A stretch of DNA of 32,000 nucleotides from Schaalia meyeri. GTDB lineage: Bacteria; Actinomycetota; Actinomycetes; Actinomycetales; Actinomycetaceae. Location of the stretch: positions 210,001 through 242,000 of the forward strand of contig NZ_FNLK01000012.1 in assembly GCF_900105015.1 (NCBI RefSeq), in the 5' to 3' direction. Position 1 is the first letter of the stretch. Each line of letters starts with the position of its first letter. The position numbers and the translations under genes were made by a program. This document shows, one piece after another, positions 12,936-29,320 of the stretch. Below the pieces are notes generated by a model. The model was not told where the DNA came from. It saw only the letters and a list, made by a program, of their open reading frames with translations, and ran no database searches.

Positions 12936-13138
12936 TGGACACTTCGATCATTTGATCGCCCAGGGAACGCGTAAAAACGATCCAAAGCACTATCAGAACA
13001 CACTAAAGGAAATGATCGCGGGGATGCGCGGCCGATTCAGATGTTTTTCCGGTAGGCTTGATTGAGCAATTGGGATAACGCGGGTTTGAGTCCGATATCT
13101 CGATGTCGGGGGACAATGCGAGCATTCATGGAGGAATC

Positions 13139-14166
13139 ATGATTAAAACGATCGGGATTGTGAGCCTATCGAGCGGAATCCTGGGCGAATCATTTATTCG
13201 CTTTGAGTCCGACAGAGGCGTTCGCAGGCTGAAGGAATACGGGCTGGATGTAAAGTTCATGCCGCACGCCCTAATGGGAGTGGATTACGTCAAGGCCCAC
13301 CCGGAGAAACGGGCGGAGGACCTGCTGCAGGCGTTCCGCGATCCGGAGATCGACATGATCCTGTGCGCGATAGGCGGAGACGACACCTACCGCCTCTTAC
13401 CGTATTTATTTGATCATGATGAGCTTGCGGACGCCGTGGCGGACAAGGTCTTCCTCGGCTTCTCAGACACGACGATCAACCATCTGATGCTCCACAAAGT
13501 GGGGCTGAGCACTTTCTACGGGCAGGCGTTCCTCCCGGACATCTGCGAACTGGGCCCGGAAATGCTCCCCTATACCCGGAAGCACTTCGAGGAGCTGATC
13601 TCCACCGGGACCATTCGGGAAGTCACCCCCAGCGATACCTGGTACGAGGAGAGGACGAGTTTCGGGCCCGATCAGGTCGGAATGCCGCTGACCGCCCTCC
13701 CCGACCACGGGTTCGAGCTATTGCAGGGGCCGCCCGCGTTCTCGGGCAGGGTACTCGGAGGATGCATCGACTCCTTGTACGACCTTTTCAACGCAGAGGC
13801 CACTCCGACATGCCTGCCATGTGCGAGGAGTACCAGTTGTTCCCGGATGAAGAGGACTGGAAGGGCCGCATCCTCCTTCTGGAGTCCAGCGAAGAGAAAC
13901 CCTCGCCAGAAAAGTACCGGCAGGCTCTCGAACACCTCAAGGAACGAGGCGTGTTCGAGGCGGTTTCTGGCGTTCTGGTCGGAAAGCCCATGGACGGGGC
14001 CTACGCCGAGGAGTACCGGCAGGCGCTGGCCCAGGTCATCGACAGGCCCGATCTGCCGGTTGTTTTCAACCTGAACGTTGGACACGCAATGCCTCGGTGC
14101 ATCATTCCATTCGGCGTTGAAGCGGTTGTTGATGCGGACAAGCAGATCATCCGGTTTGCTGGGTGA
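13139..14166 (+). pseudogene. S66 peptidase (LD-carboxypeptidase / microcin C7 immunity MccF-like), interrupted by a frameshift near 13790-13810
   Basis: The N-terminal part (frame of 13139, GGAGGA RBS) carries IGIVSLSSG and the nucleophile motif LGFSDTT. After ...GGCIDSLYDLFNAE the family-like sequence continues in the -1 frame (...MCEEYQLFPDEEDWKGRILLLESSEEKPSPE...NVGHAMPRCIIPFG) to the stop at 14166. Confidence 0.75.
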
Positions 14167-14253
14167 GTTATATCAGCTGGCATAAGAGACAGGCCAACAC
14201 CGCTTGGCAGCAGATACACTTCCATCAGGCGAAACAAACCCAGGAGGCAGGCC

Positions 14254-14637
14254 GTGAGGATCGAACACGTCGCAATGTATGTGAACAATCTTGAGGCCGC
14301 TCGTGACTTTTTCGTGCGGTACCTGGGCGGACGCTCCAACGACTGCTACCACAACACACGCACCGGTTTTCGTTCGTACTTCATCAGTTTCGACGACGGA
14401 GCGCGGTTGGAGCTCATGACCAGACCGCAGATGGCCGACGACCACAAAGACCTCAATCGCACGGGCTACGCCCACGTCGCCTTCTCCGTCGGGAGCAAGG
14501 AAGCGGTCGATGAACTGACCGACACGCTGAAGGCCGCGGGATATGACGTTGTCAGCGGCCCCCGGACGACCGGGGACGGCTACTACGAGAGCTGCGTCGT
14601 GGCCATCGAGGACAATCAGGTCGAGATCACGGTCTGA
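14254..14637 (+). CDS. VOC family protein (glyoxalase/bleomycin-resistance/dioxygenase fold)
   Basis: 127 aa with a typical VOC start (RIEHVAMYVNNLEAARDFF) and a second beta-alpha-beta module (YAHVAFSV...). GTG start is preceded by AGGAGG. Confidence 0.75.
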   Translation: MRIEHVAMYVNNLEAARDFFVRYLGGRSNDCYHNTRTGFRSYFISFDDGARLELMTRPQMADDHKDLNRTGYAHVAFSVGSKEAVDELTDTLKAAGYDVVSGPRTTGDGYYESCVVAIEDNQVEITV

Positions 14638-14822
14638 TGCGGGCGCCCCTACCCCAACACCACAACGATTTTGCCCGGCGCCGCGTGGGGCTCCATCGCG
14701 CGGTGGGCGTCGCCTCTTTTCGCAGGCCTCTGTTCCGCGAATCACTATGGAAACCAAATTTTCCATGCTCGCCTGTGACGTGCCCCGCGCCCGCTACACT
14801 TGAGGCAGACGTTAGGAGAAGC

Positions 14823-15278
14823 ATGTCCGTCGAACTGATCACCGCCGCCACTCCCGAGGTCCACGAGGCCATGGGGCGCCTGATTCCCCAGCTTTCCCGG
14901 TCCGCCGCCCCCATGAGCGCCGCCGACGTTGAGCGCTTCCTCGCACAAAGCGGCGTACACCTGTTCGTATTCCGTCCCGACCTGGCCAACGCTGACGGCG
15001 CGTACCCCATCCTGGGAATGCTGTCCCTGGCCACCTTCGAGATCCCGACGGGCGTGCGCGCGTGGGTTGAGGACGTCGTCGTCGACGAGGCCGCCCGCGG
15101 TCAGGGCGCCGGTCAGGCGCTCGTGGTCGCCGCCATCAAGCATGCGCAAAGGATCGGAGCACGCACCGTCGACCTGACCTCCCGTCCCTCGCGCGAGGCC
15201 GCCAACCGCCTCTACCAGCGCGCCGGCTTCCAGCTGCGCGAAACAAACGTGTACAGGGTGACGCTCGAACAACAGTGA
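14823..15278 (+). CDS. GNAT family N-acetyltransferase
   Basis: Acetyl-CoA binding motif VVVDEAARGQGAGQALVVAA and C-terminal NRLYQRAGF. Start at ATG 14823 is preceded by TAGGAGAA. The upstream part of the ORF (from 14637) has no family similarity. Confidence 0.8.
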   Translation: MSVELITAATPEVHEAMGRLIPQLSRSAAPMSAADVERFLAQSGVHLFVFRPDLANADGAYPILGMLSLATFEIPTGVRAWVEDVVVDEAARGQGAGQALVVAAIKHAQRIGARTVDLTSRPSREAANRLYQRAGFQLRETNVYRVTLEQQ

Positions 15279-18066: not shown

Positions 18067-18119
18067 GCCCCCACCGGCCGACACGCGTGTCCCGGTCAGG
18101 CCGCCGGCATGTGGGTGCC

Positions 18120-18147
18120 CCGGCCTCGCTTCGAACAGCGAGGCCGG
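18120..18147. terminator. Bidirectional terminator hairpin between convergent genes
   Basis: CCGGCCTCGCT (18120-18130) pairs with AGCGAGGCCGG (18137-18147) across a 6-nt loop. It lies between the stop of the M18 gene (18066) and the stop of the NUDIX gene (18166). Confidence 0.55.
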
Positions 18148-18165
18148 TGCACCCTGGTCGCGGGC

Positions 18166-20391: not shown

Positions 20392-20928
20392 ATGTCTCAA
20401 CCAGCACCCGGATGGTATCTCGACCCCGCGGGCAGTACTCGCCTGCGCTGGTGGAACGGCGGCGCGTGGACCGACCAGTTCCAGCCCGTGCCCACGCAGC
20501 AGTCGTTCCCCCAGTCGGCCCCTCACGGCGAGGCACCCGTCCCGCCGACAAACTCGGGTGCGTCATTGGCGGAGCAGGGCGTCCGTATGCCGGCCGACCA
20601 GCAGGCACCGGCGGTCTCGTCTGACCCCTACAATCCGGTCGGCGTCTCCCCTCAGTTCACCCACGCCAGAGACGATTTTGCGGTGGAGGCGAGGCCGGGC
20701 GGCGGCGGCACAAAGCGCGGTTCGAAGTGGACAATCGGAGCGGTCGCCGCCTGGGTGGCCGTCATCGCTCTCACGGTGACCTCCCTGATCACCGCAGTGT
20801 CTTACAGGGCCAGCGGGAACGACCTGTCCGAGGCGGAGAATGAGCGCAACAACGCGCAGGTGGAACTCGACCGATCCAAGTCCGAACTCGAGGACGCTCA
20901 GCGCGAGCTCCAGGAGGCGCAACAGTGA
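20392..20928 (+). CDS. Cassette 1 protein A: DUF2510-type N-terminal motif, low-complexity linker, one TM helix, charged helical tail (178 aa)
   Basis: MSQPAPGWYLDPAGSTRLRWWNGGAWTDQF..., TM WTIGAVAAWVAVIALTVTSLITAV preceded by KRGSK, tail ...ELDRSKSELEDAQRELQEAQQ. ATG 20392 is preceded by GAAAGGA. Confidence 0.75.
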   Translation: MSQPAPGWYLDPAGSTRLRWWNGGAWTDQFQPVPTQQSFPQSAPHGEAPVPPTNSGASLAEQGVRMPADQQAPAVSSDPYNPVGVSPQFTHARDDFAVEARPGGGGTKRGSKWTIGAVAAWVAVIALTVTSLITAVSYRASGNDLSEAENERNNAQVELDRSKSELEDAQRELQEAQQ

Positions 20929-21647
20929 GCTATGTTCCCACGACGACGCCTCGGCCAACGTCCGCGTCCCCCTCTGCCGCCCCGAAGGTTTTAACGATCG
21001 TCGGTGCCCTGATCGCCGTGTGCCTGCTGGTCGCCTCGGTGGCCTTGCAGCTCGGTAGCCATTCTCACAAGCAGCAGGCCGAGCAGGCGAGGAACGAGGC
21101 TCAGTCGCTGCGCAATCAGGCTAAGGACGTCGAAACGCAGATCGCGACCGTACGCACTCAGGTTACGGAGGCCAGCAACAAGAAGCAGGCGCAGGAATGG
21201 TGTGACGGCTTCACGAGCGCCGATCCGAGCTTGGACACCATCCACAAGAACGCGAGCGCCCTGGCGTCCATGCCCCAAACGCGGCGCGATGTGATCGCCC
21301 AGATCTGCCCACAGAAGAAGGAATTCGCAGAGGGGTACAAGAAGGATTACAAGAAGAATCTCGTCACGGGGGATGTGGACTGCTCGATTTCGGGAAACAC
21401 CGTGTCCGTGACCGGACGCGTGCAGCTGTCGGCTCCCACCCTCTCAGCGCTCGGTAGCTTCGACGTGAATTTCGATATCTACATCACACGCGGCGAACCC
21501 ACTTTAGCCGACAAGCCCGCCGACCGCGTCACGGTCACCATTCCTCCGGGGGGACAGGGGACGTACTCGTCGAATGTCCCCGCCCCCTCGTTCGACGAGG
21601 CAATTTGCACGGTTCGGCCCACGGGGTTGTGGCCAAGCGGAGTCTAG
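20925..21647 (+). CDS. Cassette 1 protein B: N-terminal TM anchor, Q/A/E-rich helix, four-Cys plus beta-rich ectodomain (240 aa)
   Basis: GTG 20925 overlaps the A1 TGA, with AGGAGG 7 nt upstream. TM is VLTIVGALIAVCLLVASVALQLG. Ectodomain Cys motifs are WCDG, QICPQKK, VDCS and AICT. Confidence 0.75.
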   Translation: MSYVPTTTPRPTSASPSAAPKVLTIVGALIAVCLLVASVALQLGSHSHKQQAEQARNEAQSLRNQAKDVETQIATVRTQVTEASNKKQAQEWCDGFTSADPSLDTIHKNASALASMPQTRRDVIAQICPQKKEFAEGYKKDYKKNLVTGDVDCSISGNTVSVTGRVQLSAPTLSALGSFDVNFDIYITRGEPTLADKPADRVTVTIPPGGQGTYSSNVPAPSFDEAICTVRPTGLWPSGV

Positions 21648-21732
21648 TCCGATTGTTGCCCGCGATTCCCCGGACAACTAGACTTCCTGACCAGACCCAT
21701 GGTTTTTATACGACACGGGAGAGGGATCCACG

Positions 21733-22299
21733 ATGAGCGAACCCGCGGAAGGCTGGTACGCCGATCCCAGCGGAGCCGGACAGCTGCGCTGGTGGGACGG
21801 GCACGCCTGGACGGAGTACGTCGAATCCTACGAGGGGCAAACCCCGGCCAACGAGCCCCGCATTCCCGACGCAGGCGAGCCAGCAGCCTCATCCCGCGTT
21901 GAGGCGCAGCCCGGATTCGACCGGGAGCGAGTTTCCACGCACGATCCCGCTCGCGAGGCGAGCGCCTCGGCAGTCGCCGATCCCACACCCGAGGGGCCCT
22001 CCCCGTGGGACACGATCACGGCCTCGGTGCTCACAGGTGCGAACGCCGAGGAAACGGAAAGTGCCGAGGAGGCACCGAAACGATCCGGTGTGCTCAAGTG
22101 GGCACTCGGCTGCGCCGCCTCCTGGATGCTGGTCGCGGTCTTCATCGCGGTCCTCGTCGTCGCCTGGTCCCACCTGGGCCCCAGCGGACGCATTCACGAG
22201 GACGCAAAGAGACGCGCCGAGACAGCGCGGAGCGAACTGGACGCAGCCCAGTCCACGCTCGATGACATCAACCGTCAGATCGAGGAGGCCCAAAAGTGA
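21733..22299 (+). CDS. Cassette 2 protein A: DUF2510-type motif, linker, one TM helix, charged helical tail (188 aa)
   Basis: MSEPAEGWYADPSGAGQLRWWDGHAWTEYV..., TM ALGCAASWMLVAVFIAVLVVAW preceded by KRSGVLK, tail ...ELDAAQSTLDDINRQIEEAQK. ATG is preceded by GGGAGAGGGA. Confidence 0.75.
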   Translation: MSEPAEGWYADPSGAGQLRWWDGHAWTEYVESYEGQTPANEPRIPDAGEPAASSRVEAQPGFDRERVSTHDPAREASASAVADPTPEGPSPWDTITASVLTGANAEETESAEEAPKRSGVLKWALGCAASWMLVAVFIAVLVVAWSHLGPSGRIHEDAKRRAETARSELDAAQSTLDDINRQIEEAQK

Positions 22300-22991
22300 G
22301 CGCAGCACCCGCACCCCTGCGCGCTGCCACCGTAGCGGGCGCTATCCTTGCCGTCATCTTCATCGTCTTATCCGCCGTGGTCGGCGGTATCAACGCGTGG
22401 CGCTCCCACTCGTCCACGGTGTACGAGGCCCAGGCCACGCGTGCCCAGTCCGATAAGGCGGGGGTCGACCAGCAGATCACGGACGCGAAGGCTCGCCTGG
22501 ACGGGACGAGCGTCCGCGAGGACGCGAAGGCATGGTGCGACTCCGTCACCCGCGATTCCGCTTCCTCGATCCGCGACGCCATCAAGACCTACGATTCTGC
22601 GACTCAAGCGGTCAAGGACGCCATCCACGACGAGTGCAGCAAGAAGGAGACGCTGACAAATGCCCAGCGCGCGGCGTCGGCGTCGGACTTCACCATCACG
22701 ATGGGGGAATGCACGACCGACCAGACGACCACCACGGTCAACGGGACCTTCGCGATTAATTCGTCCAGCGCGGTTGCTTCCCTTGGTTCTCTCGACGTCA
22801 CTATCCTCGGATACACGGTGGACAAGGGTGCGAGCTTCAACTCGTCGACCCCCTACCAGGGGACCGTCAACGTGACGGTCACTCCGGGCACCTCCGTCCC
22901 ATTCACCGTGAGCATCCCCTATGATCCCGCAACCTCGGCGAACACCGAGTGCGTGGCGACCATGAACAAGTGGTGGCCCACGGACCTGTAG
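22296..22991 (+). CDS. Cassette 2 protein B: TM anchor, helical stretch, four-Cys plus beta-rich ectodomain (231 aa)
   Basis: GTG 22296 overlaps the A2 TGA, with GAGGAGG 7 nt upstream. TM is VAGAILAVIFIVLSAVVGGI. Cys motifs are WCDS, DECSKKE, GECT and TECV. Confidence 0.75.
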   Translation: MSAAPAPLRAATVAGAILAVIFIVLSAVVGGINAWRSHSSTVYEAQATRAQSDKAGVDQQITDAKARLDGTSVREDAKAWCDSVTRDSASSIRDAIKTYDSATQAVKDAIHDECSKKETLTNAQRAASASDFTITMGECTTDQTTTTVNGTFAINSSSAVASLGSLDVTILGYTVDKGASFNSSTPYQGTVNVTVTPGTSVPFTVSIPYDPATSANTECVATMNKWWPTDL

Positions 22992-23074
22992 CACGCCGGC
23001 GAGACGCGCCACTTTCCACTATTTCTCTTGTATCCTCGCATAGAATCGACGGAACTCAGCGAAAGGAGCCTCCC

Positions 23075-23464
23075 GTGAGCAATCCCGTCCAAGGCTGGTA
23101 CGCCGACCCGGCCGGAAGTACCCAACTGCGCTGGTGGGACGGCACCCAGTGGACCGATCAATACCGCGCAGAGGAGACCACGCCCCCTGGCGCCACTCCG
23201 GCGGCTGCAGCGCCGGTGGGAGCCACCCCCACGGGAGCAGCGCCCGTCCGCTTCGTCCCCATCGCGACGGTGCCCCACAGGAGGGCATCGACCGGACAGA
23301 TCCTCTTCGGAGTTCTCGCCTCGGTCATGGCCGTTGTCTTTGTTGTCAGCTCCCTGGTTACAACGATCATGTACGCGGCTTCAGTCAAAGACTACAGCCG
23401 CGCAGAAACGGAACTCATGCAGGCAAACCGTGAGCTTCAAGAGGCCCAGGAGGGCGCCAAGTGA
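23075..23464 (+). CDS. Cassette 3 protein A: DUF2510-type motif, short P/A/T linker, one TM helix, charged helical tail (129 aa)
   Basis: VSNPVQGWYADPAGSTQLRWWDGTQWTDQY..., TM ILFGVLASVMAVVFVVSSLVTTIMY preceded by HRRAS, tail ...AETELMQANRELQEAQEGAK. GTG 23075 is preceded by GAAAGGAG. The ORF extension to 22949 overlaps B2 and lacks the motif. Confidence 0.7.
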   Translation: MSNPVQGWYADPAGSTQLRWWDGTQWTDQYRAEETTPPGATPAAAAPVGATPTGAAPVRFVPIATVPHRRASTGQILFGVLASVMAVVFVVSSLVTTIMYAASVKDYSRAETELMQANRELQEAQEGAK

Positions 23465-24222
23465 GCGACCAGCACGTCCCCACGCCAACCGATCCCGCCA
23501 GGACAGACGCAGGCTCGACGAAGCCCGCCGCTGTGGGCCTTGGCGCATCCCCGCTCGACGCCCAGGCATCGAAGCCCGCAAAGAGCAAAGGCATGTCCAT
23601 CTACAACTGCGTCACTTCGATCCTCCTCATCGTGTTCCTGGCGGTCACCATCACGATGGCTGTTCTGACGCAGCAGCGCGCGTCGGCTACCCGCAACACC
23701 AGGGAAGAGGCTCGGTCCGTCCGCGAGCAGGCCGCCCAGCTGGCCGCGCCCCGCTGGTGCGAGCAGGTCACGGCCGAGCACGCCGACGCAATGGAGGAAC
23801 TCTACGATCAGTACTACGATGCCAGCACCACCGTGCGCGTCGCCATCGATAAGCAGTGCGCTAAGCGCGTCAACGCCGTCAAGCTCATCCACGCCAACCC
23901 GGCGGAAGGCAGCTTCGACACGGAAACTAACTCGTGCTCCATCTCCGAATCGGGCACAACCGCGTCCTGCACCGTCGAGGTCAAGGCGAACGACACCCTC
24001 AGGGCCAAGCTCGCCACGTTCTCGTCCACGACGGTAACGCTTAAGATGTGGTTCGACCATCGAAAGATGTTCGTCGCCAATCCCGACAAGGAGATCGAGA
24101 ACGTCGCCACCGTGACGCTCGACTCCACCGGCATGGCCACTGTCGACTTCGAGGTCCCGTACGATTCGAGCTGGGGCGAATACTACGGGCTCGGGGTATC
24201 CTCGTTCTTCCCGAACGAGTAG
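23461..24222 (+). CDS. Cassette 3 protein B: longer N-terminus, TM anchor, helical stretch, four-Cys plus beta-rich ectodomain (253 aa, most diverged copy)
   Basis: GTG 23461 overlaps the A3 TGA, with AGGAGG 7 nt upstream. TM is IYNCVTSILLIVFLAVTITMAVL preceded by KPAKSKG. Cys motifs are WCEQ, KQCAKR, NSCS and ASCT. Confidence 0.75.
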   Translation: MSDQHVPTPTDPARTDAGSTKPAAVGLGASPLDAQASKPAKSKGMSIYNCVTSILLIVFLAVTITMAVLTQQRASATRNTREEARSVREQAAQLAAPRWCEQVTAEHADAMEELYDQYYDASTTVRVAIDKQCAKRVNAVKLIHANPAEGSFDTETNSCSISESGTTASCTVEVKANDTLRAKLATFSSTTVTLKMWFDHRKMFVANPDKEIENVATVTLDSTGMATVDFEVPYDSSWGEYYGLGVSSFFPNE

Positions 24223-24331: not shown

Positions 24332-24754
24332 TCAGTAGTGCTCGTGGGAGTCGTACCCGCGCAGCCGGTCCAGCTCCCGGCGTTCCTTTTTCGTGGGGCG
24401 CCCACTCCCCTTGGCTCGTACGGCGACGGGAATGTGGACGCGGGGGCGCTCCGGCGTGCGATCCTCGTAGGCGGTGCGCGCCTGCGGGTAGGACACGCGC
24501 TTGACCAGCAGCAGGACGACCCCGAGGATGCGGTCGAAACCCTCGACACGCAGGCGCACCTCGTCTCCGACGCGCAGCTTGTACGCGGCCTTGACTGTTT
24601 CGCCGTTGACGCACACGCGCCCCGCGCGGGCGGCCGCCGTGGCTTGGGAGCGCGATTTCAGCTGGCGGGTCGCCCACAGCCAGGTATCGACGCGCACGCC
24701 CGCCGACGCGAGTGCACCGGCGGGGATCGTAACGGCTTTAGGGGTGTCACTCAT
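24332..24754 (-). CDS. RNA-binding S4 domain protein (Hsp15/HslR-like)
   Basis: S4 motif VRVDTWLWATRQLKSRSQATAAARAGRVCVNGETVKAAYKLRVGDEV. Start at ATG 24754 (MSDTPKAV...), 14 nt after the permease stop. The upstream ORF extension to 25012 overlaps the permease gene. Confidence 0.75.
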   Translation of the reverse strand: MSDTPKAVTIPAGALASAGVRVDTWLWATRQLKSRSQATAAARAGRVCVNGETVKAAYKLRVGDEVRLRVEGFDRILGVVLLLVKRVSYPQARTAYEDRTPERPRVHIPVAVRAKGSGRPTKKERRELDRLRGYDSHEHY

Positions 24755-24768
24755 CGGCGCGCACACGG

Positions 24769-27489
24769 CTAGTTGATGCGGCGGATACGCTTTTGGTGGT
24801 GGGGCGTCAACACGATGGCGACCAGCGCGCACAGGATGGGCATTCCAATCAGCATGCCCAGGAGCGCACCCCAGGGGACGACCGGCCACAGGGTGCCCAG
24901 CGTCGGGAAGATGCCCGAACGGGCCAGCGTTATGACGGCCAGGACGCCGACGATCAGACCCGACAGGACGGCAGTCGGGATCGCGTTGAGCGCGAGAACG
25001 ATGCCCTGCCACGTGGTGACATGCCGCCGCATCGCGGGGGCCGCTCCGATCGCGTCCAGCGTGTCCAGGTCCGGTCGCATGTCCGAGGCTGACAGGGTGA
25101 CGACCAACGCGACCGTTGCGCCCGCCGCCACGATCGCGATGATCGCCGCGACGTAGGGCAGGACCAGGGAGCGCATCGTGGGCACGATGACCTGCGCGGA
25201 TGCTCCGGGGACCTGACGGGCGATGGTTGCCTGGAAGGCCGGTGCCTCGATCGGCCCAACGGGCTTCTCGATGCTGACCAACTGGCCCAGTGGCAGTGAT
25301 TGCAGGCCGAGGAGGGAGGCAGCGGTCGGAGACAACACCATGACGTTGACGCGGGTGAGCGGCGAGGCTGCGAATTTTTGCGTCGTCATAACGTGGGCGT
25401 CCGGCAGCGCATCGTCGCTGGCTCCGGCCGCCTTCGCCTCCGCGATATCGGTCATGTCGAGGCTGCGCAGCTGCGCCTGCCCCGCGCCATCGATCAGTGT
25501 CGGGTCGGGCACCAGCACCCCTCCGGCGTTCAGCGTGGCGATCGCACGCACCATGTCGTCCCCGCTGAGGTAGCCCGCCTGGCGCAGGAAAGTACCGTCG
25601 TCGACCATGTAGGCGACGTCCAGCTCCGCCATGGTGCCCATGTCACGGGCCAGCGTAAAGGTCGAACCGTCGACGGGGGACACGGCCTCGACCATGCGCG
25701 TCGGACCGCCCGGACCGCTGTTCCACGCCATGCCGTTCAGCATGGCCTCGGAGGTGACCGTCCGCTCCCCGTCAACCGCGTCGTATGCCGCGCTCAGGAG
25801 CTCGCGTGAGCGCTTCACCGAGTCGGTCTTGTCGGTGGTCGAGATGAACACCTGCCCGCGTTGGCCCACGTGAGGGCGCGAGTTCCATCCGGCCTCGTTC
25901 GACGAGGACAGGGTGATCAGGAGCCCGCACGCGACGAACACCGTCGTCAGGATCGAGGCCATGGCCGGGAACGTGCGGTGCCCGTTACGCACGGCATCGC
26001 GCAGCGCGAGACGCATGCTCATGGACGCGCGGCGATTCGGTGCGCGCCAGCGAGTAAAGATGTAGGGGATCGAGCCGATGAGGCCGGCCTCGAGCAGCGC
26101 AACGCCCAGGACCAGGGCCAGGATGGAGCCAAGCCACGCGGCGAGCCCCACCAGCGGCAGGCCTGTCAGGAGCGCGATCGGATAGACCACGCGGCGGCGA
26201 ACCAGGCGGGACGGTTCCCACACGCGGCCGCCGATGATGGCCGACGTGTCGATGTGGGAGGAGGTGCGCGCTGGTGACACGGATGCAACGAGGGAGAGCA
26301 GGATCGGCAGCACCGCCGACAGGGCCAGCGGCCACCAGGGCACGATGCCGATCCCCAGGCCGGACCACACGCCGATCCACACCATCGCCACTGCCGAGAA
26401 AATCACGGAGAAGATCACAGAGTAGAAGCCGATGAGGGCTCCGTGCGCGATCGTCAGGCGGCGCCCGTCGGAGCGGTCCCCGCCGTTCGCGACGATCATT
26501 GCAGCCGTGCGCATGACGGAGCGCTGGGCCACCGTGTACAGGGGCGAGATGAGCAGGATCATCTCGGTGAGAATGAGCAGGATTCCCGCGACCAAGAGCA
26601 GGTACTGCCAGGGGCTGGCTCCTCGCGTGGTCTGGGGGATTTCGTACTGGGCGATCTGTGCGGACAGGGCCGAGGTGTCGGGCGGGCTGGCCAGCACCTC
26701 GCGCGAGAGCACCGAGAAACCGGAGGCATTGAGCTCGCGGATCTTCGCCCACGACACCGGGACGGCCCCCGTCACGTACCAGGCCGTCTGGGTCCGTCCG
26801 GCGACCGCCAGGCGATCGATGGCAAGGGTGCCGTCACCAATGATCGCGCGTCCCGTGCCGCCGATGATCGCGTCAATGACGACGCTGCCCGACAGGGTCT
26901 GAGTCGCACGTTCCTTTGCGACCGTGAGCGACAGGTTCAGCGCATCTCCCGCGGAAGCGTTCAAGGCGCGCGCAACATCGTCCGAGATGACGGCGTGATG
27001 CGCGGCGAGGGCGCCGTGTTTTCCGCCCGCCTCCACGCGCGGCGCGTCCAGGGAGGAGGTCTGAGTGCCAGAATCGACCGTGAAGCCCGTGCCGTCCGCG
27101 GTCGTCAGCCGCAGCTGATACAGGGTGTCGACCGCGATCAGCTGGTCGCCCGTCGGAACCCAGTCGGTGAGCGTCGCCATGGTGACGCTCACTTCCTCGT
27201 CCGACGCGGTTTTGGATAGCCGGTCGGCCGTGAAGTCCTGTTCAAGGGCCGTCGTTGATCGGTGCAGCGTCACCGCCTGGACGGCGGAATCGTGGCCCAG
27301 CCAGGACGAGGCCTGGTAACGCTGGGAGGTCGTTACGTCCCAGAAGGTGATGGAGGTGATCGCGATGATGATCGGCAGGGAGATAAGAAAGACGGCGGTG
27401 AGCGTTCGCCCCAAGCTTTGGCGCGCATCACGAGAGGCGATGCGGAGTACCACTCCCCATCGCCTCATCCGTGTGTTCAGTCGACTCAT
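24769..27489 (-). CDS. ABC transporter permease, double FtsX/MacB-type (906 aa)
   Basis: Two repeats, each an N-terminal TM, a large extracytoplasmic region and a 3-TM FtsX-like bundle. ATG 27489 overlaps the ATPase TGA as ATGA. Confidence 0.8.
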   Translation of the reverse strand: MSRLNTRMRRWGVVLRIASRDARQSLGRTLTAVFLISLPIIIAITSITFWDVTTSQRYQASSWLGHDSAVQAVTLHRSTTALEQDFTADRLSKTASDEEVSVTMATLTDWVPTGDQLIAVDTLYQLRLTTADGTGFTVDSGTQTSSLDAPRVEAGGKHGALAAHHAVISDDVARALNASAGDALNLSLTVAKERATQTLSGSVVIDAIIGGTGRAIIGDGTLAIDRLAVAGRTQTAWYVTGAVPVSWAKIRELNASGFSVLSREVLASPPDTSALSAQIAQYEIPQTTRGASPWQYLLLVAGILLILTEMILLISPLYTVAQRSVMRTAAMIVANGGDRSDGRRLTIAHGALIGFYSVIFSVIFSAVAMVWIGVWSGLGIGIVPWWPLALSAVLPILLSLVASVSPARTSSHIDTSAIIGGRVWEPSRLVRRRVVYPIALLTGLPLVGLAAWLGSILALVLGVALLEAGLIGSIPYIFTRWRAPNRRASMSMRLALRDAVRNGHRTFPAMASILTTVFVACGLLITLSSSNEAGWNSRPHVGQRGQVFISTTDKTDSVKRSRELLSAAYDAVDGERTVTSEAMLNGMAWNSGPGGPTRMVEAVSPVDGSTFTLARDMGTMAELDVAYMVDDGTFLRQAGYLSGDDMVRAIATLNAGGVLVPDPTLIDGAGQAQLRSLDMTDIAEAKAAGASDDALPDAHVMTTQKFAASPLTRVNVMVLSPTAASLLGLQSLPLGQLVSIEKPVGPIEAPAFQATIARQVPGASAQVIVPTMRSLVLPYVAAIIAIVAAGATVALVVTLSASDMRPDLDTLDAIGAAPAMRRHVTTWQGIVLALNAIPTAVLSGLIVGVLAVITLARSGIFPTLGTLWPVVPWGALLGMLIGMPILCALVAIVLTPHHQKRIRRIN

Positions 27490-28229
27490 CAGATCCTTGG
27501 TGCTGTGTCTGCCAGCAGGTCCCTCAGCGTGTCTCCGCGTGATCGATCAACGATGCGACCATCGCGCAGGAAGACGGTTCGGTCTGCCCATGCGGCCATT
27601 CGGGCCTCATGAGTCACGAGGATACCGGCTACACCGGCATCTATGTGATCACGCAACACCAACATGATCTGTTCGCCGGTGTGAGAATCGAGCGCTCCGG
27701 TCGGTTCGTCGGCAAGAATGACCGAGCGGTTACCCACGAGGCCCCGCGCGATGGCGATTCGCTGACGCTGGCCTCCCGATAGGCGCTCGGGGAAGCGGTT
27801 CGCGAGGTCGGCGACGCCGACCTCCTCGAGGGCAGCCATGGCGGCCTCGCGCACCTTTGCGGGACTCACACCGTCCAGCTGGAGCGGCATCTCGACGTTT
27901 TCGAGCGCCGACAGAGAAGGGATCAGATTGTAGTCCTGAAAGACGTAGCCGATCGAGCGACGACGCACCTCGGCGCGACGCGCCCCGTCCAGCGTGGCCA
28001 TGTCGATCCCGTTGATGCAGACGTTTCCGCGCGTCGGCCGCTCAAGCCCACCAGCGATCGACAGCAGCGTCGACTTACCGGATCCCGAAGGACCCATAAC
28101 AGCGAGAAGCTCGCCGGGTGCGACCTCAAGGTCGATCCCGTCGAGCGCTCTCACTCGGATGCCGTCGGCGCCGAACTCATGTCCCACGCCCGTCATCCTG
28201 ATCGGTAACGGAACAGGCTGGTACATCAC
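27489..28229 (-). CDS. ABC transporter ATP-binding protein (MacB/LolD-type)
   Basis: Walker A GPSGSGKSTLL, signature LSGGQRQRIAIARGL, Walker B ILADEPTGALD. Start is GTG 28229 or ATG 28226; both overlap the padR stop codon (sequence GTGATG). Confidence 0.9.
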   Translation of the reverse strand: MMYQPVPLPIRMTGVGHEFGADGIRVRALDGIDLEVAPGELLAVMGPSGSGKSTLLSIAGGLERPTRGNVCINGIDMATLDGARRAEVRRRSIGYVFQDYNLIPSLSALENVEMPLQLDGVSPAKVREAAMAALEEVGVADLANRFPERLSGGQRQRIAIARGLVGNRSVILADEPTGALDSHTGEQIMLVLRDHIDAGVAGILVTHEARMAAWADRTVFLRDGRIVDRSRGDTLRDLLADTAPRI

Positions 28230-28825
28230 ACCCCGGCGCGCTCCGCGACACCGACCTCAGCCCAATTCATCATGCGGCCCTTGGCGGCGGCGAAGGCTGC
28301 GCGTCGCGCGGCCTCAGAGACTGCCCCGGACTCGATGTGGTCAAGCCAGTTGAGTTCCGCCTCAAGGTCGAAAATGTGACGCTCGAGGATCAGCTTCCAC
28401 GCGAGCTCGCCCTCGTCGGCCGAGGCCTTCAGGCGGGTAACGTCGCGCAGAGACCCCAGGGTCGAGCGGCGCTGGGTCTGGATCATGGACTCGACATCAA
28501 CCGTAGGGTCAGCGGCGGCCACCGCGAGCTTCATGACCAGCTCGTCACGTTCGGGATGCTCACGCGGAACGGGGGTGGACCACCATGCGTTGAGGACCTC
28601 GCGACCAACATCGGTCAGCTCAAAGACCTCAGAATCGCGGCCCGCGTTGGTCTCGGCGTGGGACACCACCTGGCCGTCGCGCTCAAGGCGCTGCATCGTC
28701 TGGTAAACCTGGCCGATATTGAGCGGCCATGCCCCGCACGTCTGTTCCTCGAACATCTGCTTCAAGCGGTAGACACCCGCGGGCTGCTGAGCAACGAGTG
28801 CCAGCAGTGCATTGCGAACCGACAT
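28226..28825 (-). CDS. PadR family transcriptional regulator
   Basis: Winged-helix PadR N-terminus (MSVRNALLALVAQQPAGVYRLKQMFEE...IGQVYQTMQRLERDG) plus a C-terminal helical domain. ATG 28825 is preceded by GGAGAG. Confidence 0.8.
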   Translation of the reverse strand: MSVRNALLALVAQQPAGVYRLKQMFEEQTCGAWPLNIGQVYQTMQRLERDGQVVSHAETNAGRDSEVFELTDVGREVLNAWWSTPVPREHPERDELVMKLAVAAADPTVDVESMIQTQRRSTLGSLRDVTRLKASADEGELAWKLILERHIFDLEAELNWLDHIESGAVSEAARRAAFAAAKGRMMNWAEVGVAERAGV

Positions 28826-29320
28826 AACTCTCCGTTCGTTGTGTGCCGCGTAGGCGATCGTAGTTGAACGGTATCCATCGTACGCCAATTTCGTGGATGG
28901 AGTGGAGAATTCACGGTGGGCTACCTAACAAAATCCCTACCGAGTGGTTAGAAGGAGCCTCCTGCAATTTTGGGCCATACCGAGCCACATCGAGGATTAT
29001 TAACCCCTGAGAGGATTAAAGTTTCAACCGTATTGCAGACGGTCATGACTGTTCTTTCGGCAAGATTCCGACACTTTTCGCTCACCCGGTCAGAAGCTGC
29101 GTCAGATCCGAGACAACTCACCAAAAACTGCCCCAATCGACCCTGGAAACTCATTTGACCACCGAGACAAAACGAATAATATCACCCGATAGTCTCAAAT
29201 CCTGAGATTCGTGTCGCGTGTCTGCGGAGTTTCCGTGGCGCCTCGTCCATGGGCGAGCGAACAGGGCACGCCTCGACCCCACCCCGAGGCTACACTGGGG
29301 GCAACGAGGAGGATTCACCG

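What the first reader, a model, noticed from the sequence alone, without database searches (positions are those of the whole stretch)
20392..24222. Three tandem, diverged copies of an uncharacterised two-gene membrane module (DUF2510-TM-tail protein plus TM-helix-four-Cys ectodomain protein)
Six consecutive plus-strand ORFs form three A/B pairs: A1 20392-20928 with B1 20925-21647, A2 21733-22299 with B2 22296-22991, and A3 23075-23464 with B3 23461-24222.

Protein A, in all three copies:
- It opens with the same about 25-aa motif GWYxDPxGxxxLRWW[DN]GxxWT, which I recognise as the DUF2510 signature.
- A variable P/A/E/Q-rich linker follows, then one TM helix preceded by K/R residues.
- It ends in a 30-40-aa charged helical tail.

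Protein B, in all three copies:
- It has a short N-terminus and one TM helix.
- A Q/A/E/R-rich helix follows, then a Cys-containing helical segment.
- It ends in a beta-rich C-terminal domain.

The copies share only motif-level protein identity, so this is not a recent duplication. Even so, the unit length is held almost to the nucleotide: the shared 17-mer CTGCGCTGGTGGRACGG lies at 20443, 21784 and 23126, giving spacings of 1341 and 1342 nt. I see no catalytic, DNA-binding or mobility domain. I cannot match this architecture to any characterised system. Maintained, diversified tandem paralogues of an envelope-spanning pair are the pattern expected for cell-surface recognition, exclusion or immunity functions, but that is speculation.
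Basis: partly seen in the sequence, partly recalled or inferred. Interest (0 to 1): 0.88.

Follow-up and report, generated by a model that had tools for sequence, protein, structure and literature searches.

The report
Split two-gene membrane protein, tandemly triplicated
Three neighbouring gene pairs in an oral Actinomyces-group bacterium each encode the two halves of one uncharacterised envelope protein, which close relatives make as a single chain; the family is real, fast-evolving and lineage-restricted, but its job is unknown.

Summary
Six + strand genes form three A/B pairs. A is DUF2510, a disordered linker, one TM helix and a helical tail. B is one TM helix, a long stalk helix, a four-Cys helical domain and a beta sandwich that matches no known family.

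New evidence:
- A and B are linked in every locus examined, always through a (G/A)TGA stop/start overlap.
- In more distant relatives the same chromosomal slot holds one pair, or one fused gene (DUF2510, one TM, stalk, B head). The pair is therefore a split single-pass protein, with DUF2510 in the cytoplasm and the head outside.
- A and B duplicated together. Copy number runs from 1 to at least 4.
- The array is far more diverged (36-82% aa identity) than its flanks (81-93%), and divergent alleles occur within one species. dN/dS stays below 1.

The "exact" 1341/1342-nt unit length is a coincidence: relatives range from 1111 to 1527 nt. No defence, phage, catalytic or solved-structure relative was found.

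Best reading: translationally coupled heteromeric trans-membrane connectors, with a conserved cytoplasmic adaptor and variable outer heads. The physiological role is inferred only. Interest is moderate.

The parts
20392..20928 (+). A1: DUF2510 (aa 6-37), Pro/Gln-rich linker, TM helix (about aa 115-137), helical tail (aa 138-178)
   Evidence: ORF. Pfam PF10708, E 1.7e-11. TM helix and tail from hydropathy. Orthologues begin MSQPAPGWY, which supports the ATG at 20392. 99% identical to HMPREF2946_03775 of Actinomyces sp. HMSC062G12.
20925..21647 (+). B1: short N-terminus, TM helix (aa 20-41), stalk helix (48-95), helical Cys domain (103-141), beta sandwich (147-237). Cys at 93, 128, 153 and 228.
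   Evidence: ORF. AF2 model with pLDDT 81. No Pfam or NCBIfam family above cut-off. 24 homologues found with B1 alone.
21733..22299 (+). A2: DUF2510 (aa 7-37), linker, TM helix (about aa 125-147), helical tail
   Evidence: (E 6.7e-10).
22296..22991 (+). B2: same architecture as B1. It is the most conserved pair (66-82% identical to orthologues).
   Evidence: Scores 182 bits against the B-family HMM.
23075..23464 (+). A3: DUF2510 (aa 7-38), short linker, TM helix (about aa 76-98), and a tail 14 aa shorter than in A1 and A2
   Evidence: E 4.1e-11; AF2 model. The database protein P0273, reported with NCBI locus tag HMPREF2946_03795 (129 aa, the length of A3), is most likely A3 itself.
23461..24222 (+). 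B3: longer N-terminus, TM helix, a stalk about 21 aa shorter, and the alternative Cys pattern C-33-C-25-C-11-C
20407..20502 (+). DUF2510-coding segment of A1. Together with 21751-21843 and 23093-23188 it forms the only substantial DNA-level repeat between the units.
20925..20928 (+). GTGA overlap of the A1 stop and B1 start. The same overlap occurs at 22296-22299 and 23461-23464, with a GAGGAG-like Shine-Dalgarno sequence in the last A codons.
   Evidence: The (G/A)TGA overlap is present at all 29 junctions checked in 10 loci.
21648..21732 (+). 85-nt spacer between pair 1 and pair 2. The spacer between pairs 2 and 3 is 22992-23074 (83 nt). Each ends in its own ribosome-binding site.
   Evidence: No promoter or terminator signal above chance.

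Best explanation
Each A/B pair is a two-chain version of one single-pass envelope protein.

**Shown**
- A and B are translationally coupled and always adjacent.
- They duplicated and diverged together.
- In relatives the same chromosomal slot encodes a single chain: DUF2510, linker, one TM helix, stalk and B head.

**Inferred**
- Both chains insert with the N-terminus inside. A's extracytoplasmic tail runs parallel to B's stalk as a coiled coil of matched length. This non-covalently joins a conserved cytoplasmic DUF2510 beta-meander, held on a flexible Pro-rich leash, to an extracytoplasmic head. The head is a helical subdomain plus an Ig-like sandwich, stapled by two disulfides.
- Because DUF2510 is the conserved part and the heads diverge, the three pairs most likely act as paralogous trans-membrane connectors or receptors. 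They would share one cytoplasmic partner and present different heads, at two stalk lengths, in the cell-wall zone.

The physiological ligand and output are unknown.
For: **Linkage**
- Every intact, full-length B in the 27 loci examined is preceded by an A-type gene or is fused to one. The only exceptions are the short, TM-less B remnants in L007 and L013.
- The (G/A)TGA overlap is present at 29 of 29 junctions, with an internal Shine-Dalgarno sequence.

**Natural fusions**
- P0164 and P0173 carry a DUF2510 Pfam hit, one TM helix and the B ectodomain. They sit in the same slot after the Asp-Al_Ex/TrkA_C transporter gene.

**Topology**
- K/R clusters precede each TM helix, for example RRRGRRKRR in L017 and RRRWRK in P0164.
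- Four ectodomain Cys occur in 139 of 147 homologues.
- With a single TM helix in the fusions, DUF2510 and the Cys-bearing head must lie on opposite sides of the membrane.

**Co-evolution**
- A and B fall into identical orthologue clusters. Their pairwise identities correlate at r = 0.95.
- A-tail and B-stalk lengths co-vary: 45/48-51, 45/50, 35/29, 35/29, 28/38 and 52/65.
- A's TM helix plus tail aligns in register with B's TM helix plus stalk. hhalign scores 38.7, against 18.0 +/- 3.0 for composition-preserving shuffles.

**Real genes under constraint**
- Between close strains dN/dS is 0.09-0.25 for B and 0.28-0.76 for A.
- DUF2510 is 63% identical between paralogues, against 22-40% for the rest of A.
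Against: - No direct test of A-B binding was possible. No multimer prediction was available.
- The tail/stalk length correlation rests on about six independent lineages.
- The hhalign signal could reflect a generic pattern of a TM helix followed by heptads, rather than homology or pairing.
- The function of DUF2510 is unknown. The full-text library holds no paper that mentions it.
- Some A copies have lost DUF2510 but keep the TM helix and tail (L018, and pair 3 of L008 and L011). The cytoplasmic module is therefore dispensable in some pairs.
- There is no expression data.
Confidence: 0.55

Rival explanations
1. The array is a variable surface repertoire shaped by antagonists such as phages, Saccharibacteria epibionts or host immunity. 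The B heads would be receptors, decoys or exclusion factors, and the paralogues and alleles would be kept by diversifying or balancing selection.
For: - The array is 36-82% identical to relatives, while its flanks are 81-93% identical.
- Within one species, pairs 3 and 4 occur as divergent alleles. A4 is 64.5% and B3 68.8% identical at the amino-acid level, with dS 0.2-0.65 and dN/dS about 0.4. The flanks have dN/dS 0.04-0.13.
- Copy number varies from 1 to at least 4.
- The Schaalia group hosts both phages and TM7x (PMC11032452).
- The only characterised architecture that resembles this one, TM helix plus beta sandwich in Mpr, is a phage-defence protein (PMC12596739).
Against: - dN/dS is below 1 everywhere, and only 0.09-0.25 for B between close strains.
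- Divergence is spread over the TM helix, stalk and head rather than focused on the head.
- The slot is a conserved chromosomal locus, not an island.
- There is no PADLOC family and no phage homologue of B.
- The known LC001 phage receptor determinant in XH001 is a cell-wall polysaccharide cluster, not these genes.
- A head on a 29-51-residue stalk would sit inside a thick wall.
Confidence: 0.2
2. The proteins are housekeeping envelope or divisome scaffolds. They would be bitopic TM-plus-coiled-coil heterodimers in the manner of FtsL/FtsB (DivIC) or MapZ, positioning cell-wall synthesis or division proteins. The extra copies would be lineage-specific subfunctionalisation.
For: - The syntenic position is conserved across distant relatives whose flanks are only 53-75% identical.
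- The architecture is N-in TM helix plus extracytoplasmic coiled coil.
- There are weak sub-threshold hits to FtsL, GspL/M, ZapG and SepX/GlpR models over the TM-plus-coil region.
- B is under purifying selection.
Against: - All of those hits lie far below the curated cut-offs. FtsL scores 11.8-12.4 bits against 42-55, and SepX/GlpR scores 18 against 150.
- Sequence turnover this fast, copy-number change and decaying copies are unusual for core divisome parts.
- The neighbours are not division or cell-wall genes.
Confidence: 0.15
3. The ORFs are chance or decaying reading frames in GC-rich DNA and have no function.
For: - All are annotated as hypothetical proteins.
- Some relatives carry truncated A copies or remnant B copies.
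Against: - The ORFs, the overlap junctions, the Cys pattern and the synteny are conserved across many genomes.
- dN/dS is 0.09-0.76.
- The AF2 model of the B ectodomain is confident, with pLDDT above 90.
Confidence: 0.02

Closest known systems
DUF2510 (Pfam PF10708) domain-containing membrane proteins of Actinobacteria
   Same: A1, A2 and A3 carry the domain at the N-terminus, above the gathering score. Public annotation of orthologues reads 'DUF2510 domain-containing protein'.
   Different: - The domain has no known function.
- Here it sits on a protein whose only other parts are a TM helix and a short coiled-coil stub.
- It is obligatorily paired with, or fused to, a separate ectodomain family.
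- A profile comparison with WW domains, which share the 3-strand topology, was negative.
Mpr, the multicopy phage resistance protein of Mycobacterium smegmatis (N-terminal region, TM helix, linker, DUF4352 domain; PMC12596739, PMC9262609)
   Same: It is an actinobacterial single-pass membrane protein of about 215-250 aa, with an unstructured N-terminal region and a C-terminal DUF4352 domain, and it forms oligomers.
   Different: - B has no DUF4352 match at E <= 1.
- B has a long coiled-coil stalk and a four-Cys helical subdomain.
- B needs a partner gene.
- No nuclease or nucleotide-hydrolysis motif could be tested.
- No phage-encoded relatives of B were found.
FtsL/FtsB (DivIC) bitopic coiled-coil heterodimer of the divisome
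   Same: Both are two small N-in single-pass proteins whose membrane-proximal extracytoplasmic helices are expected to pair. Weak hits fall over that region.
   Different: - The scores are far below the cut-offs.
- B carries a 140-residue globular head and A carries a cytoplasmic DUF2510 domain.
- The genes are tandemly amplified and fast-evolving.
- They are not in a division and cell-wall gene cluster.
SadB, the trimeric coiled-coil lipoprotein of Salmonella (PDB 4c47), and Ig/FnIII-like sandwich domains (beta-glucosidase C-terminal domain, B. subtilis IPI 3isy)
   Same: These were the best Foldseek matches. The shared shape is a coiled-coil stalk bearing a beta-rich head, or a small Ig-like sandwich.
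   Different: - E-values are 1e-3 or worse.
- TM-scores are 0.2-0.3 over the whole model.
- Sequence identity is 7-19%.
- This is a resemblance of shape only.
Rz-like i-spanins (PHROG 214, 89, 2975)
   Same: Both have an N-terminal TM helix followed by a coiled coil outside the membrane (E 3e-4 to 3e-3).
   Different: - The hits cover only the TM-plus-coil segment.
- There is no o-spanin partner.
- There is no lysis cassette or phage context.

Membership tests
DUF2510 (PF10708) | Match to the Pfam HMM above the gathering score (24 bits) | tested here: met
   A1 scores 44.1 bits, A2 39.0 and A3 42.9, at residues 6-38. None of B1, B2 or B3 matches.
DUF4352 (PF11611) / Mpr-type | Match to the DUF4352 HMM in the C-terminal domain | tested here: not met
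   No DUF4352 hit for B1, B2 or B3, even at E <= 1. No Mpr-like chain appears in the PDB sequence search or in the top 50 Foldseek matches.
DUF4352 (PF11611) / Mpr-type | Metal-dependent exonuclease and NTP hydrolysis activity, and phage resistance on overexpression | not testable with these tools
   These are biochemical and phenotypic properties described in PMC12596739.
Ig-like / E-set beta sandwich fold | Significant structural superposition of the C-terminal domain on known Ig/FnIII-like domains | tested here: inconclusive
   Foldseek probabilities are 0.95-1.0 for the FnIII-like domains of beta-glucosidases and for IPI 3isy. E-values are 2e-3 to 1e-2, with 83-118 aligned columns. Weak profile hits reach Kre9_KNH Ig-like repeat proteins.
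FtsL / FtsB(DivIC) | NCBIfam or Pfam family score above the cut-off | tested here: not met
   The FtsL models score 11.8-12.4 bits against cut-offs of 42-55.
SepX/GlpR divisome protein | NCBIfam NF050100 score above the cut-off (150 bits) | tested here: not met
   B3 scores 18 bits, over the TM helix and stalk only.
GspL/GspM and PilN/PilO-type bitopic assembly proteins | Family HMM above the cut-off, and a secretion or pilus gene neighbourhood | tested here: not met
   GspL_C scores 17.7 bits against 29.6, and T2SSM 14.6 against 27.8. The neighbours are a peptidase, a NUDIX protein, a transporter, an S4 protein and an ABC system.
Rz-like spanin | Membership of a phage lysis cassette with an o-spanin partner, and a match over the whole protein | tested here: not met
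   The PHROG hits (E 3e-4 to 3e-3) cover only the TM-plus-coil segment. There are no phage genes nearby and no phage homologue of B.
Known anti-phage defence systems (PADLOC-DB 2.0) | Match to a defence-system protein model | tested here: not met
   Only weak coiled-coil hits to ZorB, DndD, LeoA/B and PbeC, at E 8e-4 to 8e-3 and 13-16 bits.
WW domain | Profile similarity of DUF2510 to WW domains | tested here: not met
   hhalign probability is 0.4%, with 2 aligned columns.

The most novel reading that the evidence does not exclude
The locus defines a new class of modular, split single-pass trans-envelope receptors. A conserved cytoplasmic DUF2510 adaptor chain would be zipped, through an extracytoplasmic coiled coil, to interchangeable disulfide-stapled Ig-like heads. 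The tandem paralogues and the divergent alleles seen within a species would form a variable repertoire that governs interactions of oral Actinomycetaceae with phages or with Saccharibacteria epibionts. This would also give DUF2510 its first function, as a shared inside-the-cell docking module.
Probability: 0.12. Interest if true: 0.75.

Novelty: new variant of a known kind. Interest (0 to 1): 0.45.

Why it matters
- **DUF2510.** It is a widespread actinobacterial domain with no assigned function, and the full-text library held no paper that mentions it. This locus offers a clean handle. The fused and split forms fix its topology as cytoplasmic. They also tie it to a defined extracellular partner domain that has no Pfam or NCBIfam model.
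- **Gene fission.** The locus is a tidy natural example: a single-pass protein becomes a translationally coupled heteromer, followed by tandem amplification. This can be dated and tested across one bacterial family.
- **Tractable host.** The organisms are abundant oral and gut commensals, and S. odontolytica XH001 is genetically tractable. If the heads prove to be recognition surfaces, the array would become a candidate determinant of phage or epibiont host range.
- **If not.** It remains an ordinary lineage-specific envelope protein family.

Tried and rejected
- **Unit length as a constraint.** Rejected. The spacing is 1111-1527 nt in relatives.
- **B as DUF4352.** No HMM hit at E <= 1.
- **Solved-structure relatives.** Sequence profiles of A and B against the PDB gave nothing below E 0.05. 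Foldseek of the B1 model against the PDB and BFVD gave only weak Ig-like or coiled-coil matches. Foldseek of the A3 model gave no matches.
- **DUF2510 as a WW-like domain.** hhalign was negative.
- **Defence-system or phage origin.** PADLOC and PHROGs returned only compositional TM/coiled-coil hits. B has no homologue in 50,697 phage genomes. A matches phages only through the DUF2510 motif.
- **Mobile island.** Composition is not atypical. There are no tRNA genes, no Rfam matches and no tandem DNA repeats in the array. The flanks are housekeeping genes.
- **Literature.** 'DUF2510' and 'PF10708' returned no papers. The XH001/TM7x phage paper implicates a cell-wall polysaccharide cluster, not these genes.
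- **First genome scan.** It was repeated with the B1 orthologue alignment.
- **Positive selection.** Not shown. dN/dS is below 1 in all comparisons.

Full report
**1. Observation**

The six + strand ORFs are present as described: A1 20392-20928, B1 20925-21647, A2 21733-22299, B2 22296-22991, A3 23075-23464 and B3 23461-24222.

The 17-mer CTGCGCTGGTGGRACGG occurs only at 20443, 21784 and 23126. None of 100 shuffles reached three matches. It lies inside an 82-nt direct repeat, 61-72% identical, that encodes the DUF2510 motif. This is the only substantial DNA-level repeat between the units; the sole other hit is a 21-nt two-copy match.

Pfam places DUF2510 (PF10708) at residues 6-38 of all three A proteins, at 39-44 bits against a cut-off of 24. 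No B protein reaches any Pfam or NCBIfam cut-off. The A copies are 34-44% identical and the B copies 24-27%.

The window is from, or is nearly identical to, Actinomyces sp. HMSC062G12. A1 is 99% identical to HMPREF2946_03775, and the 129-aa protein P0273, reported with locus tag HMPREF2946_03795, is most likely A3 itself. The genes there are annotated as hypothetical proteins.

**2. Anatomy**

An AlphaFold2 model of B1, built on 21 sequences, has pLDDT 81, and above 90 across the ectodomain. It shows:
- a TM helix at residues 20-41;
- a 48-residue stalk helix at 48-95;
- three short helices at 103-141;
- a six-strand beta sandwich at 147-237.

The A3 model has pLDDT 61. It shows a three-strand meander at residues 7-27 (pLDDT about 75), a disordered linker at 33-72, and one continuous helix at 73-128 that covers the TM segment and the tail.

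Of 147 full-length B homologues, 139 have exactly four Cys after the WC motif. They fall into two patterns:
- C-35-C-25-C-75-C, seen in B1, B2 and the distant homologues;
- C-33-C-25-C-11-C, seen in the B3 type.

An even and conserved Cys count fits two disulfides in an exported domain. That Actinobacteria oxidise exported proteins through MdbA/VKOR is established knowledge and was not tested here.

**3. A and B are one functional unit**

Every A stop overlaps the following B start as (G/A)TGA. This holds at 29 of 29 junctions in 10 loci. A GAGGAG-like Shine-Dalgarno sequence lies within the last A codons, which partly explains the conserved ...QEAQ C-terminus.

In all related loci the genes alternate strictly A-B-A-B. 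Seven far more distant B homologues, found by a profile search of 1.84 billion representatives, were also examined. Each is either directly preceded by an A-type gene (a DUF2510 gene in P0157, P0160, P0162 and P0182; an A that has lost the DUF2510 motif upstream of P0163), or is fused to a DUF2510 N-terminus.

The fusions are P0164 (317 aa) and P0173 (357 aa, from an NCBI genome). Each has a DUF2510 Pfam hit, a linker, one TM helix, a coiled coil and the B ectodomain. They occupy the same chromosomal slot as the window's array, directly after the divergently transcribed Asp-Al_Ex/TrkA_C transporter gene. M18 peptidase and NUDIX genes lie beyond it, and an S4-domain gene usually lies on the other side.

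The slot therefore holds, in different lineages:
- one fused gene;
- one pair (L017, L018, L025);
- three pairs (the window, L005, L006, L026);
- four or more pairs (L001-L004, L009, L011, L012, L020).

**4. Topology (inferred)**

The fused proteins have a single TM helix. DUF2510 and the four-Cys head must therefore lie on opposite sides of the membrane. The Cys pattern puts the head outside, so DUF2510 is cytoplasmic.

K/R clusters directly precede the TM helix of A. Examples are KRGSK in A1, RRRGRRKRR in L017 and RRRWRK in P0164. The same is seen in B-type proteins (KPGKSKG). This agrees with an N-in orientation for both chains.

**5. Evidence that the A tail pairs with the B stalk (suggestive, not proof)**

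A and B sort into identical orthologue groups, labelled types 1-4. The window carries types 1, 2 and 4. Pairwise identities of A and B correlate at r = 0.95.

Tail and stalk lengths change together. The values are 45/48-51 and 45/50 residues for types 1 and 2, 35/29 for types 3 and 4, 28/38 in L017 and 52/65 in L018. The tail difference between the types is a clean 14-residue indel, which equals two heptads.

A profile of A's TM helix plus tail aligns in register with B's TM helix plus stalk. hhalign gives probability 93.6% and score 38.7. Thirty within-segment column shuffles give 18.0 +/- 3.0, with a maximum of 23.4. This fits a split that arose by partial duplication of the TM-stalk segment, and it fits parallel pairing. 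A generic pattern of a TM helix followed by heptads could give the same signal.

**6. Evolutionary tempo**

| Comparison | Flanking genes | A/B genes |
|---|---|---|
| Window vs Schaalia, Pauljensenia and Actinomyces relatives (aa identity) | 81-93% | A1 35-56%, B1 42-57%, A2 51-55%, B2 66-82%, A3 40-44%, B3 32-46% |
| Within one species, L001/L002/L004 | 97.6-100% aa identity, dN/dS 0.04-0.13 | Pairs 3 and 4 occur as divergent alleles: A4 64.5%, B3 68.8%, B4 87% aa identity; dS 0.2-0.65; dN/dS about 0.4 |
| Window vs a close strain of the same organism, L026 | not available | Same three pairs; dN/dS 0.09-0.25 for B and 0.28-0.76 for A; a 24-residue linker indel in A3 |

The genes are therefore real and constrained, but they evolve several times faster than their neighbours, and alleles are probably exchanged. 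Positive selection is not demonstrated.

Divergence in B is spread over all regions. Within the B1 orthologue group the sandwich is 43% identical, against 54-58% for the TM helix, stalk and helical domain. In A, DUF2510 is by far the most conserved part, at 63% against 22-40%.

Some copies are decaying or simplified:
- pair-3 A proteins in L008 and L011 lack DUF2510;
- L018's A has lost the motif;
- L007 and L013 carry B remnants.

These last loci are from MAGs, so assembly artefacts are possible.

**7. What it is not**

- **Unit length.** The 1341/1342-nt spacing is not conserved. It ranges from 1111 to 1527 nt elsewhere.
- **DUF4352.** B does not match the model, even at E <= 1.
- **Solved structures.** Profile searches of the PDB found nothing. 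Foldseek gave only weak matches, at E 1e-3 or worse. These were to SadB, which has a coiled-coil stalk plus head, and to small Ig/FnIII-like sandwiches. BFVD added nothing convincing.
- **Defence or phage families.** PHROGs and PADLOC gave only hits over the TM-plus-coiled-coil region: Rz-like spanin, ZorB and LeoB.
- **Phage homologues.** B has none in 50,697 phage genomes. A matches only through DUF2510, to a 76-aa membrane protein next to the integrase of some mycobacteriophages.
- **Family size.** The B family is tiny. Among 1.84 billion sequence representatives, 81 clusters match at E <= 1e-3 and 51 at E <= 1e-10.
- **Genomic context.** The surroundings are ordinary chromosomal genes. There is no compositional anomaly in the array, and there are no tRNA or Rfam elements.

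**8. Mechanism proposed**

Shown: translational coupling, obligatory linkage, co-duplication, and equivalence to a single-chain protein.

Inferred:
- Both chains are N-in.
- The A tail zips along the B stalk.
- The complex couples a conserved cytoplasmic DUF2510 module, on a variable Pro-rich leash, to a variable head in the wall zone.
- The heads are held at two stalk lengths, about 50 and about 29 residues.
- The pattern of a conserved inner module with divergent outer modules suggests several heads feeding or using one cytoplasmic partner, that is, a receptor or connector family.

Whether the pressure on the heads comes from outside (phage, epibionts, host) or simply reflects loose structural constraint is open. 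I give the structural and evolutionary model 0.55, an antagonist-driven surface repertoire 0.2, and a housekeeping scaffold 0.15.

**9. Comparison with known systems**

A is a member of DUF2510. B belongs to no described family.

The closest characterised architecture is Mpr of M. smegmatis. It has a TM helix and a DUF4352 domain, forms oligomers, and acts in phage defence (PMC12596739). The family test fails for B.

FtsL/FtsB, GspL/M, SepX/GlpR and Rz spanins share only the layout of a TM helix plus an extracytoplasmic coiled coil. All of them score far below their cut-offs.

**10. Verdict**

This is a real, previously undescribed, lineage-restricted split-gene envelope module with a clear evolutionary story and an unknown role. 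It is best filed as a new variant among actinobacterial DUF2510-anchored single-pass envelope proteins. Interest is 0.45.

Noticed in passing
window 24769-28888 (- strand): A PadR regulator (28226-28888), an ABC ATPase (27489-28229) and a 906-aa polytopic protein (24769-27489) form an overlapping operon. The 906-aa protein has no Pfam family above cut-off; its only hit is a sub-threshold FtsX C-terminal match of 16.4 bits against 25.5. The trio is conserved next to the array in the Schaalia group.
   Followed up: partly
window 24332-25012 (- strand): The S4-domain (Hsp15-like) ORF reads 226 aa from its first start codon, but its orthologues are 140 aa, so the true start is probably near 24754-24772. 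In the window it is convergent with the array. In L014 and L017 it is co-directional, and it overlaps the preceding gene: the fused DUF2510/B gene in L014 and a TauE gene downstream of B in L017.
   Followed up: partly
window 18067-18165, compared with L001 6569-7000: Relatives carry an OsmC gene between the M18 aminopeptidase and NUDIX genes. The window has only a 99-nt gap there.
   Followed up: no
window 13001-15000: GC content drops to 0.58-0.61, against 0.64-0.70 elsewhere. The region includes a Peptidase_S66 (LD-carboxypeptidase) ORF at 13103-14074.
   Followed up: no
L021 2501-2731 (Mycobacterium phage Roary gene 29, MN813681.1): A 76-aa 'membrane protein' made of a DUF2510 motif lies directly downstream of the serine integrase, overlapping it, in several Fromanvirus mycobacteriophages. 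This position could suit prophage-expressed genes.
   Followed up: partly
L008 12102-12452, L011 12096-12449, L018 7528-8004, L007 10896-11366, L013 10869-11366: These are degenerate copies. Some A proteins have lost DUF2510 but keep the TM helix, the tail and the overlap with B. There are also short TM-less B remnants after pair 1 in two MAGs, which could be real decay or assembly collapse.
   Followed up: partly
L022 4121-6004: In one distant relative (GCA_030524055.1) the A partner is 627 aa and B is 426 aa, with long low-complexity Gly/Asp/Pro-rich N-terminal regions. A 901-aa DUF5979 surface-protein gene lies next door.
   Followed up: no
L001/L002/L004 12213-14627: Contigs of a single species share identical B1 proteins, yet they carry very different alleles of pairs 3 and 4, with dS up to 0.65 against 0.005-0.2 in the flanks. 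This suggests allele replacement by recombination at the distal end of the array.
   Followed up: partly
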